DNA from: Candidatus Omnitrophota bacterium
Lineage (GTDB): Bacteria > Omnitrophota > Gorgyraeia > Zapsychrales > Fredricksoniimonadaceae
NCBI GenBank assembly: GCA_903836515.1
Contig: CAILQW010000048.1
Location: 316-64,315, forward strand
Direction of reading: 5' to 3'
DNA: 64,000 nt
Position 1 is the stretch's first letter; every line of letters begins with the position of its first letter. The notes under the pieces are model-generated. The model made no database searches and was not told where the DNA came from. It saw nothing but the letters and a program-made list of their open reading frames with translations. Shown one piece after another: positions 6,006 through 8,425 of this stretch. The position numbers were made by a program, and so were the translations under genes.

Positions 6006-7610
6006 ATGAAGATCGGACGCAATGACCTGTGTTTTTGCGGGAGCGGAAAAAAGTATAAGAAATGTTGCCTGGGTCGTGAGTTGCCCGGGGAACTTAAGCA
6101 TAAGACTCATGATATTTTGCCGGATCGATGGGAGATCGATTATGGCGAGCCGTGTTTGGACAAGGATTTCTTTGACCACAATGGATTGGCAGAATTTTCA
6201 GCAGCCAGAATGATCCAGGCGGCCATGCTGTTCCCCGATGCTGTTGAAGAGGTTGCCAGCGAGGTTCGTCTTGAAACGACCGGGTATCTTGCTGAACTTA
6301 AGGAGATCGAGGAGCTGACGAGGCCGCAGGAGATCGTGCGGTTTTTGAAAAAAGGTCCGGACCGCCTCAATTATCCGCAAGTGTTGGATAAATTTCTGGA
6401 TCATGAAAAAGAAACGGTGCTGTTATTGCTCGAAGAGATGCGAAGTTCCGACAATGAATTATTTGTGGAATGGGCTGTAAAATTGTTCTATGAATCGGAT
6501 TATGTACTTGCTGAAGATATCCTTGAGATTATCGAATTGCATCAGCATGATGCGTATGCGGTTTCTTTGCTTTGTATTTTGTTGGGTTCTTATGATCATC
6601 CCGCTATCCCGAAGTTGTTATGGGATTACTTTCAATATTTCAGGAAGAACTTCCGCGATGAGCTGTACCACGAAGGACCCTTGCTGGCGCTGCGTGAGAT
6701 CCACGAATATATGAATGAGCCGCGGGTATCAGATCCGGAAATGGCCTTGTGGGATGAAGATCGGCTGGCTACTTTTGACGAGAAGGAGCTGGTTGCGCGC
6801 ATGAAAGCGTTGGGTGTTCCTTTGGATAAAGAGACCTTTTTGAAAGATATACAGGGTCTTCATGCGGCAGAAAAGCTGGTTGATCGTTGGGTTGAGAAAT
6901 ATTCCATTCATTCAGTTGGGAACGACGAGGATTTTTTGTGGTTTGGTGCCATGGAGCTTTGGAAACGCTGGGCGCCAGAGGTGATGTTCGATGAGCGTTT
7001 GAGCGATATGATGCAGCGCGGATACGATTGTTTCAACCGAAGAAAGAATCGTGAAGGCTGTGATCTTTGGCTGGAGGTATGGGAAGTCTTCAAGGCGCGG
7101 CACGCGGGGCACGGCAGATCTCTGGAGGGAGTGGACAAGCAATATAGTGGTTCCCAGACTTGGCACAATTGGTGTCAGGATCTGGAGATGAACCTCGGCA
7201 ATCTTGTTCGTGTTTGCCCGGAGTACGCTCCCCGGGCGGTTACGTATTTCAGGGAATTTCGTTTGTTGTTGCCGGAGTCCGATCCATTGATTGTTCAGAA
7301 TATGATGATGGCCGAGGCTGAAGCCCTGATTTTTGGAGGAGACTTGGTTGCGGGAGAGGCTCTTTTTCGGAAAGTAGTGGAATCTTTTTCGGATGATGTT
7401 TGGGGTTATATCCGTTGGGGGGATGTGTTTGCATCGTCGATGTGGTCTTCTTTGGTGCCGCAGGATTTGACAAAAGCTGAAAAAATTTACCGCATGGCGA
7501 TTGGCCGCGGTCTAAAAGAGGAAAAGGAAGTCAATCGCCGGATCAGGGATATGGGAGAAACGCGCCAGGCTCACAAGAATGATCGGATAGGGTCAAGGTT
7601 GTTGAAATGA
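6006..7610 (+). CDS. SEC-C zinc-binding-motif protein (N-terminal [13 protein letters not shown]) with a large helical domain of unknown function
   Basis: 534 aa; canonical SEC-C motif at residues 8-22; good RBS GGAGAGG upstream; the remainder matches no family I recognise. Confidence 0.6.
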   Translation: [534 protein letters not shown]

Positions 7611-8425
7611 TGCGACAGGAGAATGCGGTGAGCACGGGATTGACCTTTCAAGAAATCTGTCCGGACTTCGACGAATGGCCAGACAGATGGCAAATAATGT
7701 CCGAGGACAGACCGTATGGACGGGAGTTGCTGACTATTTTCAAGCCTTTTTGTGAGGATCTGGTGGCCAAAGGTTTCTCGAAAAGCACGATTAAAAGACA
7801 TTTGGGTTTCTTGTGGGTTTTGGGCGGCGAGCTGATCGAGGAGATCAATGAGTACGAGGGAAAAAGGACCCGACCGGCCATGGACTTGTTGATGGATCAA
7901 TTGGACCCGGATGGAGGCCCTTATTGTCGTCATTTGGAAGGCGAGTCAGAGCATCGTGCTTTTGACGCGACCTGTAAGAAGCTTTACAAGTTCCTGCAGG
8001 AGAGTCAGGCGAAGGATCGTGAAGCCGGCGCTCCGTCCGGCTACGATACATCGTGGGATCTTGTTTTGGATGAAAAAGGTAATCGGCCAACTAATGAAGC
8101 CGCGTATGATGAGAAAAGCCGTGAATGGCAATGGCGTGACTGGAAGAAGTGGTTGGAAGAAAATCTCGTTTTCCCATTTGATGTTATTCGCAAAGAGGAT
8201 GATGACGATTCTATCGAGATTGCGGCAAATGAGCCTTTCAGCGTTGGGCATCAGATGACCGCGTTTGGATTGGCCGGTGAGATGGGCGGGTACGGGATTA
8301 TTGCTCGGGTGAAGGAACGTCGCCGAAAAGGGCACGCTCCTCTTTGTGACCTTGAGGTGACGCCTCCCGGCGACAGGAACTTCTGGCCTGTTAGGGAGTA
8401 TGTTGTCTGGTTTGCTAACCGGTGA
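7607..8425 (+). CDS. Hypothetical acidic protein, translationally coupled to the SEC-C protein gene
   Basis: 272 aa; the start ATG overlaps the upstream TGA (ATGA at 7607-7610); no recognisable domain; followed by palindromes TTGGTCGACCAA and CTACCGAG...CTCGGTAG. Confidence 0.5.
   Translation: MMRQENAVSTGLTFQEICPDFDEWPDRWQIMSEDRPYGRELLTIFKPFCEDLVAKGFSKSTIKRHLGFLWVLGGELIEEINEYEGKRTRPAMDLLMDQLDPDGGPYCRHLEGESEHRAFDATCKKLYKFLQESQAKDREAGAPSGYDTSWDLVLDEKGNRPTNEAAYDEKSREWQWRDWKKWLEENLVFPFDVIRKEDDDDSIEIAANEPFSVGHQMTAFGLAGEMGGYGIIARVKERRRKGHAPLCDLEVTPPGDRNFWPVREYVVWFANR

What the first reader, a model, noticed from the sequence alone, without database searches (positions are those of the whole stretch)
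6006..8425. Translationally coupled SEC-C-motif protein plus 272-aa acidic partner inside the defence island
ORF1 (534 aa) opens with a canonical SEC-C zinc motif ([13 protein letters not shown]) followed by about 500 aa of helical sequence with no family I recognise. ORF2 (272 aa, acidic) starts at an ATGA overlap with the ORF1 stop. The pair sits between hsdR and a Schlafen-like COG2865 gene, so by guilt-by-association it is a candidate uncharacterised two-gene defence or stress system. SEC-C motif proteins outside SecA are largely of unknown function.
Basis: inference. Interest (0 to 1): 0.6.

Follow-up and report, generated by a model that had tools for sequence, protein, structure and literature searches.

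The report
SEC-C helical protein plus CcbP-like partner
Two tightly packed genes with no recognisable enzyme domain (an N-terminal SecA-type metal-binding motif on a helical-repeat scaffold, and a small SH3-like "CcbP" domain protein) belong to families that are linked by gene neighbourhood and by one natural fusion, but they are not a conserved two-gene cassette and nothing yet shows that they are a defence system.

Summary
ORF1 (6006-7610, 534 aa) starts with a canonical SEC-C motif and is otherwise all-helical. ORF2 (7607-8425, 272 aa, pI 4.9) follows, either with an ATGA overlap or from a GTG 18 nt later that has a better Shine-Dalgarno. The pair lies between hsdR and a Schlafen/COG2865 gene.

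Both proteins are mosaics:
- ORF1 is SEC-C, then a rare about 200-aa helical domain, then a 275-aa TPR-like domain. That last domain is shared with about 310-aa SEC-C proteins in at least 176 bacterial and archaeal genomes.
- ORF2 is a helical domain homologous to the passenger ORF of a multicopy ISL3 insertion sequence, then a CcbP-like SH3-type barrel.

The cassette idea fails for close relatives. The nearest relatives of ORF1 (74%, 71%, 55%, 55% identity) and of ORF2 (86%, 60%) each occur without the other gene.

The families themselves are linked. A CcbP-like gene lies within about 6 kb of the TPR-like family in 6 of 85 loci, and one protein (P0224) fuses both domains.

No effector domain or PADLOC model matches beyond the SEC-C motif, and there are no phage hits. 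The wider family is not visibly enriched near defence genes.

The closest functional precedent is Rugutis, a lactococcal SEC-C-motif antiphage protein.

Verdict: a probable adaptor pair from a loosely linked gene guild, of unknown role. Interest is moderate.

The parts
5991..5997 (+). Shine-Dalgarno-like GGAGAGG, 8 nt upstream of the ORF1 ATG
   Evidence: Read directly from the sequence.
6006..7610 (+). ORF1, 534 aa: SEC-C motif + N-domain + TPR-like C-domain
   Evidence: ORF list and translation. An identical protein (P0001) is found on 14 metagenome contigs. The AF2 model is all-helical, pLDDT 85.
6018..6071 (+). SEC-C (SecA-like metal-binding) motif, aa 5-22, C9/C11/S13/C20/C21
   Evidence: Pfam PF02810, E 5.8e-09, 36.1 bits. 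The motif residues are nearly invariant across 52 homologues.
6123..6740 (+). ORF1 N-domain (about aa 40-245): a rare helical domain. Elsewhere it is found as stand-alone SEC-C proteins of about 250 aa.
   Evidence: A search with aa 23-250 found only P0135-P0139 (173-271 aa; four of the five carry SEC-C). Alignment A8 shows conserved motifs. Among the fetched loci, HMM hits beyond the SEC-C motif are limited to ORF1-type proteins.
6750..7565 (+). ORF1 C-domain (aa 249-520): TPR-like helical repeat domain shared with about 310-aa SEC-C/TPR proteins. Signature motifs are [12 protein letters not shown] and WGYIxWGD.
   Evidence: BLASTP against P0014 gives 39% identity, E 1e-65. About 100 homologues cover this half only. 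176 genome loci across bacteria and archaea encode a relative. A PDB profile search finds only designed CTPR proteins (E 0.006). Foldseek finds only generic TPR solenoids.
7607..8425 (+). ORF2, 272 aa from ATG 7607 (ATGA overlap), or 265 aa from GTG 7628
   Evidence: ORF list and translation. AGGAG lies at 7617-7621, 6 nt before GTG 7628. Both the 265-aa and the 272-aa gene calls exist. AF2 gives pLDDT 86.
7643..8005 (+). ORF2 N-domain (aa 13-133): helical domain homologous to the passenger ORF of an ISL3-family insertion sequence
   Evidence: tblastn hits on Paraburkholderia, Caballeronia and Polaromonas plasmids. BLASTP gives 41% identity, E 3e-32, to the 139-aa ORF L098:4944-5363. That ORF lies inside a 1.71-kb repeat unit together with an ISL3 transposase; 9 places on 3 replicons, best place on each at least 99.8% identical.
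8042..8422 (+). ORF2 C-domain (aa 146-272): CcbP-like SH3-type beta-barrel with flanking helices, ending in the conserved ...WPVREYVVWFANR
   Evidence: Pfam PF11535, 25.5 bits against a cut-off of 21.5. The top Foldseek PDB hit is CcbP 2p0p (prob 1.0, TM-score normalised to target 0.51), followed by SH3 domains. 797 representative clusters match at E<=1e-3. Among the 150 listed, the domain is usually alone or at the C-terminus.
8501..8522 (+). Weak terminator-like hairpin followed by TTTGTTCT, in the 167-nt gap before the Schlafen/COG2865 gene
   Evidence: Consensus scan only; 6 sites found against 2.6 expected.
2304..5906 (+). Upstream neighbour: Type I restriction subunit HsdR with a C-terminal S24-peptidase-like extension
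   Evidence: Pfam and PADLOC.
8593..9981 (+). Downstream neighbour: SLFN_AlbA_2 + HATPase_c_4 (COG2865-type) protein. This family recurs near ORF1-type genes.
   Evidence: Pfam. The same family is adjacent to P0005 in L105 and lies near the anchor gene in L004, L051, L084 and L095, with short fragments in L016. Identities to the window copy are only 26-32%.

Best explanation
ORF1 and ORF2 are two proteins without recognisable catalytic domains, probably protein-binding adaptors, that most likely work as a complex. Their direct adjacency is specific to this lineage. It looks like a junction inside a shuffled array of a loosely linked gene guild: SEC-C/TPR-like proteins, CcbP-like proteins, PRiA4_ORF3/DUF7309 proteins, UPF0158, DUF6880 and COG2865/Schlafen.

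Shown here:
- ORF1 carries an N-terminal SecA-type Cys-rich metal-binding motif followed by two helical domains.
- ORF2 carries an IS-passenger-type helical domain followed by a CcbP-like SH3-type barrel.
- The ORF1 C-domain family and the CcbP-like family recur near each other and are fused in one natural protein.
- Neither protein has a recognisable catalytic domain.

Inferred:
- The CcbP-like barrel of ORF2 docks on the TPR-like C-domain of ORF1.
- The two proteins are made in a fixed ratio from one transcript.
- By analogy with the SecA, YecA and YchJ motifs, the SEC-C motif binds Zn or Fe. It would tether the complex to an acidic partner such as the ribosome or SecB, or act as a redox or metal switch.
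- The complex senses or regulates rather than executes. Any output would go through other proteins, for example island neighbours or the translation and secretion machinery.
For: - Domain dissection.
- All-helical ORF1 and two-domain ORF2 models at pLDDT 85 and 86.
- CcbP-like fold.
- Neighbourhood recurrence: a CcbP-like ORF lies within about 6 kb of the SEC-C/TPR gene in 6 of 85 loci (window, L006, L016, L020, L050, L057). L050 and L057 are both Methanoperedens, so this is five independent contexts. A seventh, L084, has one about 7 kb away. The CcbP-like family has only 797 representative clusters among 1.84 billion proteins.
- Fusion: P0224 combines the ORF1 C-domain (HMM E 1.5e-32; BLASTP E 6e-16) with a CcbP-like domain (E 5e-17).
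- Other CcbP-like proteins are fused to HEAT or TPR repeats.
- Tight spacing or overlap of the two genes.
- Shuffled arrays with the same families occur in Omnitrophota, Bacillota and Methanoperedens.
Against:
- The closest relatives of each gene lack the other as a neighbour, so neither strictly needs the other.
- CcbP-like genes accompany only about 7% of SEC-C/TPR loci.
- The single fusion lineage (P0224 and its relative P0248) lacks the SEC-C motif and the first 100 residues of the domain, and could be a mis-called or decayed gene.
- Strongly conserved polar residues in the C-domain (D309, R321, E330, N388, D392, N399, D473, R512) could mark an unrecognised active site rather than a binding groove.
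Confidence: 0.4

Rival explanations
1. A self-contained abortive-infection-type antiphage system. ORF1 senses a phage protein through its helical domains, and its SEC-C motif mediates toxicity, for example by competing for SecA-motif binding sites on ribosomes or SecB. ORF2 acts as co-sensor or inhibitor. This would work like Rugutis.
For: - Rugutis is a 359-aa single-gene lactococcal antiphage protein with an N-terminal SEC-C motif and an otherwise unmatched fold. Expression of the terminase large subunit of phage c2 reduced viability of cells carrying Rugutis, and escape mutants map to that gene.
- ORF1 sits in a defence-rich island (Type I R-M, PDC-S50-like ORF, Schlafen/COG2865).
- ORF1-type relatives lie near AbiE, RhuM, Schlafen-type helicases and COG2865 genes.
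Against:
- tblastn of ORF1 and of a Bacillota relative against 72,556 plasmids listed no Lactococcus match to the C-domain.
- There are no PADLOC hits beyond the motif.
- Neighbours of the wider family are not defence-enriched, and some members sit in conserved chromosomal synteny (Coleofasciculus L036, L043, L046).
Confidence: 0.2
2. Cargo that serves a mobile element rather than the host, for example an anti-defence protein or a regulator of transposition or packaging.
For: - The ORF2 N-domain is homologous to a passenger ORF carried inside a multicopy ISL3 element.
- PRiA4_ORF3-family genes are the most frequent neighbours of the family. By my own knowledge (not tested here), that family includes the passenger TnpR of IS1096, an ISL3-family element.
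- The window region 1-19.2 kb carries a ParB_N-methylase, a terminase large subunit, a Bro-N gene and an ISL3 transposase fragment.
- Both proteins are acidic and show no enzyme domain.
- Family members lie on archaeal and Rhizobium megaplasmids next to IS elements.
Against: - No match in 50,697 phage genomes for either protein, and none in IMG/VR for the CcbP-like subfamily.
- The pair is not inside an identifiable IS.
- It is co-oriented with, and 99 nt downstream of, the host-type hsdR.
Confidence: 0.15
3. Accessory subunits of a neighbouring gene: either the HsdR-S24 Type I restriction enzyme or, more plausibly, the COG2865/Schlafen protein. ORF1, ORF2 and COG2865 would then form the real unit.
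For: - A COG2865-type gene follows P0005 (55% ORF1 relative) after 76 nt with no ORF2 in between.
- The same family lies within 6 kb of the anchor gene in the window, L004, L051, L084 and L095, with short fragments in L016.
- An ORF2 relative (L011) is followed by an IS3 and a truncated HATPase_c_4 gene.
- L016 repeats the order hsdR, S24..., SEC-C/TPR..., CcbP.
Against: - The COG2865 copies are only 26-32% identical to the window copy, while the ORF1 relatives are 55% identical. They were therefore not inherited as one block.
- COG2865 and Type I R-M genes are common in variable islands in general (own knowledge).
- L018 shows no such neighbour among the ORFs scanned; L103 is too short to tell.
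Confidence: 0.1
4. No functional relation: two unrelated hypothetical genes brought together by island shuffling.
For: Close relatives of each gene occur without the other. Neighbourhoods of the family are very heterogeneous.
Against: The families recur together in at least five independent contexts, and one natural protein fuses them. The two genes are spaced by at most 17 nt.
Confidence: 0.15

Closest known systems
Rugutis (lactococcal plasmid-encoded Abi-like antiphage protein, 359 aa; PMC11381338, PMC12184496, PMC13064643)
   Same: The SEC-C motif is at the extreme N-terminus, followed by a few hundred residues with no annotated domain. It is encoded on mobile DNA among defence genes.
About 310-aa 'SEC-C metal-binding domain-containing / tetratricopeptide repeat' proteins (e.g. 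P0014 Desulfofundulus, P0040 Sporolactobacillus, P0070 Oceanobacillus)
   Same: ORF1 aa 1-22 and aa 249-520 align end to end with them (39% identity, E 1e-65), including the [12 protein letters not shown] and WGYIGWGD motifs.
   Different: ORF1 has a 226-aa extra helical domain inserted between the motif and the shared domain. That domain otherwise occurs in separate SEC-C proteins of about 250 aa. No function is known for the family.
SecA C-terminal metal-binding domain, YecA (AscA) and YchJ
   Same: The same CxCxSGx8CC/H motif. In those proteins it binds Zn or Fe, and in SecA it binds SecB and ribosomes (10.1101/613315). YecA is reported as a chaperone (10.1101/2020.07.21.215244) and YchJ as a ROS-sensing regulator (PMC13377102).
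   Different: The motif is N-terminal here, whereas it is C-terminal in SecA and YecA. The attached domains are unrelated (no UPF0149, no NTF2-like domain, no SecA ATPase).
CcbP (Alr1010) of Anabaena PCC 7120, Pfam PF11535, PDB 2P0P/2K2V
   Same: The ORF2 C-domain passes the Pfam threshold, and CcbP is its best structural match.
   Different: CcbP is a 126-aa single-domain protein studied as a Ca2+ buffer in heterocyst development. ORF2 belongs to a distinct subfamily with the ...WPVREYVVWFANR terminus, carries an extra N-domain, and its Ca2+-binding residues were not assessed. Sequence similarity to CcbP itself is marginal (E 0.92 with my profile).
Passenger ORF of a 1.71-kb ISL3-family insertion sequence (Paraburkholderia aromaticivorans BN5 plasmids; WP_095417045.1)
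   Same: 41% identity over ORF2 aa 13-133 (E 3e-32).
   Different: The IS protein is a stand-alone 139-aa protein transcribed divergently from the transposase. In the window the domain is fused to a CcbP-like domain and is not inside an IS. Its function is unknown.
TPR-based phage-protein sensors of defence systems (e.g. Avs/STAND NTPases)
   Same: A helical-repeat surface in a defence-island protein could recognise a phage protein. This is own knowledge and analogy only.
   Different: ORF1 has no NTPase and no effector domain, and shows no homology to these proteins.

Membership tests
SEC-C motif (PF02810; SecA-like metal-binding domain) | CxCxSG-x8-C[CH] motif scoring above the Pfam gathering threshold | tested here: met
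   C9-F-C11-G-S13-G-KKYKK-C20-C21; 36.1 bits against a cut-off of 20.4.
SEC-C motif (PF02810; SecA-like metal-binding domain) | Binds Zn2+ or Fe; binds SecB or ribosomes | not testable with these tools
   Needs metal analysis and binding assays. The properties are known for SecA, YecA and YchJ only.
About 310-aa SEC-C + TPR-like protein family | Homology of the roughly 275-aa helical domain, including the [12 protein letters not shown] and WGYIGWGD motifs | tested here: met
   BLASTP E 1e-65 to P0014. Conserved columns are listed. HMM score 412 bits.
About 310-aa SEC-C + TPR-like protein family | Architecture: the SEC-C motif is followed directly by the domain | tested here: not met
   226 residues (aa 23-248) are inserted. 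Only P0001-P0005, L018 and their contig copies share this layout.
Canonical TPR repeats (Pfam TPR clan) | Significant match to a TPR repeat model | tested here: inconclusive
   ORF1 itself has no TPR hit at E<=0.01. Relatives carry TPR_14 hits. The family profile hits designed CTPR proteins at E 0.006-0.03. Foldseek hits are TPR solenoids, but with TM-scores of only 0.15-0.25.
CcbP family (PF11535) | Pfam gathering score and the CcbP fold | tested here: met
   25.5 bits against 21.5 over aa 166-269. 2p0p is the top Foldseek hit, prob 1.0, TM-score normalised to target 0.51.
CcbP family (PF11535) | Ca2+ binding through acidic surface residues; role in heterocyst development | not tested
   The residues were not mapped. 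The source organism is not known to be a heterocystous cyanobacterium; the closest ORF1 relative is in an Omnitrophota MAG.
Rugutis antiphage system | N-terminal SEC-C motif on an otherwise unannotated protein | tested here: met
Rugutis antiphage system | Sequence or fold homology of the non-motif part | tested here: inconclusive
Rugutis antiphage system | Confers phage resistance; toxicity triggered by the phage terminase large subunit | not testable with these tools
   Experimental.
Known or candidate defence systems (PADLOC-DB v2) | Match to a defence protein model over more than a short motif | tested here: not met
   ORF1 hits only aa 2-22 of PDC-S12 and E1-E2/E2 models. ORF2 has no hit.
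Conserved two-gene operon or system | Close relatives of both genes adjacent in independent lineages | tested here: not met
   Adjacency is seen only in contigs of the same lineage, where ORF1 is 100% identical. It is absent in L018, L103, L004 and L105 for ORF1 relatives and in L102, L011 and L012 for ORF2 relatives.
Conserved two-gene operon or system | Family-level association (neighbourhood or fusion) | tested here: met
   6 of 85 loci have a CcbP-like ORF within about 6 kb. The P0224 fusion is shown.
ISL3 passenger protein | Homology, and location inside an IS | tested here: inconclusive
   Homology is met (41% identity, E 3e-32). Location is not met: ORF2 is not within an IS, and the nearest ISL3 transposase fragment is 10 kb away at 18510-19199.

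The most novel reading that the evidence does not exclude
The SEC-C/TPR-like, CcbP-like, PRiA4_ORF3/DUF7309, UPF0158 and DUF6880 families together form a modular conflict or regulatory system that none of the libraries or papers searched here describes. It would have no effector domain of its own, occur in both bacteria and archaea, and be partly carried by IS elements. Its components would combine a constant docking module (SEC-C motif or CcbP-like barrel) with variable binding domains. The ORF1-ORF2 pair would be a minimal version that reads a phage or mobile-element protein and acts through the ribosome or Sec machinery, much as the SEC-C protein Rugutis might.
Probability: 0.15. Interest if true: 0.7.

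Novelty: new variant of a known kind. Interest (0 to 1): 0.4.

Why it matters
If ORF1 and ORF2 form a sensor or adaptor complex, they would give an entry point to several widespread families of unknown function: SEC-C/TPR proteins in at least 176 species, about 800 clusters of CcbP-like proteins, PRiA4_ORF3, UPF0158 and DUF6880. They could also help explain what an N-terminal SecA-type metal-binding motif does outside secretion. That question became concrete when the SEC-C protein Rugutis was shown to block phages. The results also suggest that the 'calcium-binding CcbP' label describes one member of a broader SH3-like family whose usual company is helical-repeat proteins. As it stands, the evidence shows a functional link between families, not a defence function. 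The practical value is therefore a defined, testable pair rather than a discovery.

Tried and rejected
- PHROGs, NCBIfam and PADLOC scans of both proteins found nothing beyond the SEC-C motif.
- tblastn of both proteins against 50,697 phage genomes gave no match.
- An IMG/VR scan with the CcbP-like alignment gave no confirmed relative.
- Foldseek of ORF1 against the PDB gave only generic TPR solenoids at low TM-score, which says nothing about function.
- PDB sequence-profile searches found only CcbP at E 0.92 and designed TPR proteins.
- I considered that these might be immunity proteins of polymorphic toxin systems ('polyimmunity' arrays). None of the family names occurs in the reference survey (PMC3482391), and no toxin or Imm families were seen in the arrays, so I dropped the idea.
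- I considered a DNA-mimic anti-restriction role for the acidic ORF2. Its charge is only moderate (net -15), and its position directly downstream of and co-oriented with the host-type hsdR argues against it. It is kept only inside the mobile-cargo rival.
- I checked whether stand-alone N-domain proteins sit next to SEC-C/TPR genes, which would explain ORF1 as a fusion of neighbouring genes. No N-domain hits were found in the 80 genome loci. The second SEC-C proteins in those loci are of other kinds.
- Three literature searches returned nothing relevant: SEC-C/TPR/phage, CcbP/PF11535, and PRiA4/UPF0158/DUF1186.
- No tRNA genes were found that could mark island borders.
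Full report
**1. Observation**

ORF1 opens with [21 protein letters not shown]. Pfam SEC-C matches aa 5-22 at 36.1 bits against a cut-off of 20.4. NCBIfam and PADLOC hit only these same 20 residues, and PHROGs finds nothing.

The ATGA overlap exists. However, a GTG at 7628 has a much better Shine-Dalgarno (AGGAG at 7617-7621, 6-nt spacer). It coincides with the N-termini of homologues P0120 and P0121, and one public gene call uses it (265 aa). Either way the gap is at most 17 nt.

ORF2 is moderately acidic (pI 4.9, net -15). ORF1 is acidic as well (pI 5.1).

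The flanks are as stated. Upstream are hsdS, a 294-aa ORF and hsdR. Downstream is a SLFN_AlbA_2/HATPase_c_4 (COG2865-type) gene.

Further downstream lie a ParB_N-methylase, a sigma-70-region-4-like small ORF and a terminase large subunit (phrog_38, E 7e-112). After those come a Bro-N gene and an ISL3 transposase fragment, and then ordinary chromosomal genes (RND efflux, FeoB, a histidine kinase). The 'defence island' is therefore the accessory end of a prophage-like remnant.

**2. Anatomy of ORF1**

A database search returned 118 relatives, but only five are full length (P0001-P0005). About 100 are proteins of roughly 310 aa that cover half of the query.

BLASTP against one of them (P0014) aligns ORF1 aa 2-22 (the SEC-C motif) and aa 249-520 (39% identity, E 1e-65). 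It skips aa 23-248.

The skipped part is a separate domain. Searched alone, it finds only five proteins (P0135-P0139, 173-271 aa), four of which carry SEC-C. These share conserved motifs with ORF1.

ORF1 is thus SEC-C + N-domain + C-domain.

AlphaFold2 gives an all-helical model (pLDDT 85). Foldseek against the PDB returns only generic TPR solenoids at TM-scores of 0.15-0.25. A family profile hits only designed consensus-TPR proteins (E 0.006).

The C-domain has strongly conserved polar positions and two signature motifs, [12 protein letters not shown] and WGYIGWGD.

A scan of one genome per species found 176 loci encoding this domain. They span Omnitrophota, Bacillota, Desulfobacterota, cyanobacteria, Chloroflexota, haloarchaea, ANME-1, Methanoperedens and Asgard archaea. 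The closest is a Candidatus Omnitrophota MAG at 71% identity.

**3. Anatomy of ORF2**

Only 16 relatives were found by the word-indexed search. The alignment shows two independent parts.

- *C-domain (aa 146-272).* It passes the Pfam threshold for Calci_bind_CcbP. In the AF2 model (pLDDT 86) it is an SH3-like barrel with flanking helices. Its best PDB match is CcbP itself (2p0p, prob 1.0, TM-score normalised to target 0.51), followed by SH3 domains.
- An exhaustive profile search found 797 representative clusters at E<=1e-3. Among the 150 listed, the domain is usually alone (about 130 aa) or at the C-terminus of longer proteins. In those longer proteins the N-terminal parts include HEAT, TPR/ST7, DUF6398 or another SH3-like domain.
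- *N-domain (aa 13-133).* It is homologous (41% identity, E 3e-32) to a 139-aa ORF transcribed divergently from an ISL3 transposase on Paraburkholderia and Caballeronia plasmids.
- That ORF and the transposase lie together inside a 1.71-kb unit. The unit is present at 9 places on three replicons of one strain, with the best place on each replicon at least 99.8% identical. It is therefore an IS passenger gene.

**4. Is the pair conserved?**

Not among close relatives.

- The adjacent pair is seen only in contigs of the same lineage, where ORF1 is 100% identical.
- ORF1 relative P0002 (74%; L103) has UPF0158 upstream. Its downstream ORF starts MSGTNK, resembling the start of the DUF7309-type genes in L018 and L102.
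- The Omnitrophota relative (71%; L018) has UPF0158, then the ORF1-like gene, then a DUF7309/DUF6930/PRiA4_ORF3 gene, then DUF6577 and an AbiE pair. It has no CcbP-like ORF.
- P0003 (55%; L004) has UPF0158 upstream and no ORF2-like gene.
- P0005 (55%; L105) is followed after 76 nt by a COG2865-type gene.
- P0004 (52%; L006-L010) sits in an array: RhuM, the ORF1-like gene, DUF6880, a CcbP-like protein of 279 aa with a different N-domain, then several further genes, a small canonical CcbP, and a SEC-C+TPR protein of 281 aa.
- Conversely, the 86% ORF2 relative (L102) is preceded by a small canonical CcbP. It is followed by a DUF7309-type gene that is 64% identical to the one downstream of the ORF1-like gene in L018.
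- The 60% ORF2 relative (L012) is not preceded by an ORF1-type gene.

So ORF1-like and ORF2-like genes can occupy the same slot in related arrays. Their direct junction in the window is specific to this lineage.

**5. Are the families linked?**

Yes, loosely.

I called ORFs in 85 loci carrying the C-domain family and clustered everything within 6 kb. The recurrent neighbours were:
- other SEC-C proteins, 12 loci;
- PRiA4_ORF3-type proteins, 8-10 loci;
- COG2865/Schlafen-type proteins, 6 loci;
- CcbP-like proteins, 6 loci.

L084 adds a CcbP-like ORF about 7 kb from the anchor gene. The independent arrays lie in a Bacillota MAG (L020), in Methanoperedens (L050, L057) and in Omnitrophota (L084). 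L016 repeats the order hsdR, S24 peptidase..., SEC-C/TPR..., CcbP.

The CcbP-like family is rare: 797 clusters among 1.84 billion representatives. Chance is therefore an unlikely explanation. I could not, however, compute a proper background rate.

Most tellingly, one protein from the exhaustive search, P0224 (446 aa), carries both domains. It contains the ORF1 C-domain (HMM E 1.5e-32; 28% identity to ORF1 aa 355-527, E 6e-16) and a CcbP-like domain (28% identity, E 5e-17).

Gene fusion together with recurrent neighbourhood is the classical signature of a functional, often physical, association.

**6. Is it defence?**

Unresolved, and the evidence is mixed.

*For:*
- The window context and the contexts of ORF1-type relatives are rich in defence-type genes such as Type I R-M, Schlafen-type helicases, AbiE and RhuM.
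- There is an experimental precedent for an N-terminal SEC-C protein acting as an Abi-like antiphage system. This is Rugutis, whose escape mutations and trigger map to the phage terminase large subunit.

*Against:*
- There is no effector domain.
- There is no PADLOC match beyond the motif.
- The immediate neighbours of the wider family comprise 157 different Pfam families among 138 genes, including housekeeping enzymes, with few defence models.
- Some members lie in conserved synteny within a genus (Coleofasciculus).
- Neither protein has a relative in the phage collections.
Indirect signs suggest they differ outside the motif.

**7. Most likely mechanism (confidence 0.4)**

I propose an adaptor pair without catalytic activity. 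The steps below are inferred, not shown.

- The CcbP-like barrel of ORF2 binds the TPR-like C-domain of ORF1.
- The SEC-C motif binds Zn or Fe. As in SecA, YecA and YchJ, it either tethers the complex to an acidic partner such as the ribosome or SecB, or acts as a redox or metal switch.
- The variable domains (the ORF1 N-domain and the ORF2 IS-passenger-type domain) supply specificity.

What is shown is the domain composition, the absence of catalytic signatures, the tight gene spacing, and the family-level link.

The rivals are:
- a Rugutis-like Abi system (0.2);
- cargo that serves the mobile element (0.15);
- accessory subunits of the neighbouring COG2865 or HsdR-S24 genes (0.1);
- chance adjacency (0.15).

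**8. Novelty and verdict**

Both proteins are new domain combinations built from catalogued but uncharacterised families. I therefore rate the finding a new variant of a known kind.

The more interesting result is at the family level. A loosely linked guild (SEC-C/TPR, CcbP-like, PRiA4_ORF3/DUF7309, UPF0158, DUF6880, COG2865) recurs in shuffled co-directional arrays across bacteria and archaea, and two of its domains are IS passengers. For PRiA4_ORF3 that IS-passenger link rests on my own knowledge and was not tested here. Interest: 0.4.

Noticed in passing
window 5571-5906 (HsdR aa 1090-1194); L016 4705-5331; L010 1701-4103: The Type I restriction subunit HsdR carries a C-terminal S24 (LexA/UmuD-like) peptidase domain (Pfam E 2.9e-06). 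In L016 an S24 peptidase is a separate gene directly after hsdR. In L010 an S24 domain is fused to a Schlafen-group-3 helicase. This suggests a recurrent coupling of self-cleaving S24 modules to defence nucleases and helicases.
   Followed up: partly
window 1427-2311: A 294-aa ORF is wedged between hsdS and hsdR. It hits the PADLOC candidate family PDC-S50 (E 5.5e-16) and phrog_29016 but no Pfam or NCBIfam family. It may be an accessory defence gene embedded in the Type I R-M operon.
   Followed up: no
window 12589-19199: The region carries a ParB_N + N6_N4 methylase, two small ORFs (one sigma-70-region-4-like, a candidate small terminase) and a terminase large subunit (phrog_38, E 7e-112). 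No capsid genes were recognised downstream. Next come a Bro-N gene (17427-18359, minus strand) and an ISL3 transposase fragment (18510-19199, minus strand), and then chromosomal genes. It looks like a prophage or satellite remnant whose accessory arm holds the whole 'defence island'.
   Followed up: partly
window 10537-12247: Three consecutive ORFs (163, 142 and 268 aa) lie between the COG2865 gene and the methylase. They have no hit in Pfam, NCBIfam, PHROGs or PADLOC. They are conserved in all contigs of this lineage.
   Followed up: no
L098 about 3690-5403 (NZ_CP022993.1); L099 3728-5420: A 1.71-kb ISL3-family insertion sequence carries a divergently transcribed 139-aa passenger ORF. It is present at 9 places on three replicons of Paraburkholderia aromaticivorans BN5, with the best place on each replicon at least 99.8% identical. 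The passenger is the homologue of the ORF2 N-domain. Terminal inverted repeats were not found by the simple repeat scan.
   Followed up: partly
L006 9572-10700; L009 7656-8838; L102 3-179; L084 9805-10125: Small proteins very close in motif pattern to Anabaena CcbP (ER[AT]MGWYYYL...FPF...AIADWxYW) sit immediately upstream of a SEC-C+TPR gene or of an ORF2-like gene, in non-cyanobacterial metagenome contigs. The 'calcium-binding heterocyst regulator' label may not describe the general role of the family.
   Followed up: partly
L018 3423-7258; L103 33-2084; L004 7271-9599: A recurrent gene order is seen around ORF1-type genes: UPF0158 (PF03682), then the ORF1-like SEC-C protein, then a DUF7309/DUF6930/PRiA4_ORF3 protein. 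It is more conserved than the ORF1-ORF2 pairing.
   Followed up: partly
plasmid NZ_CP061967.1 (Klebsiella pneumoniae, 21.8 kb) about 1994-2545: An unannotated clinical Klebsiella plasmid encodes a homologue of the ORF1 C-domain family (38-40% identity). It is split over two places, so the gene is possibly frameshifted.
   Followed up: no
PLSDB plasmids: A tblastn with a SEC-C/TPR protein matched 541 plasmid records, 338 of them conjugative, mostly Klebsiella and Xanthomonas. Where listed, the matches beyond the top few cover only the SEC-C motif region. Proteins carrying a SEC-C motif therefore appear to be common plasmid cargo.
   Followed up: no
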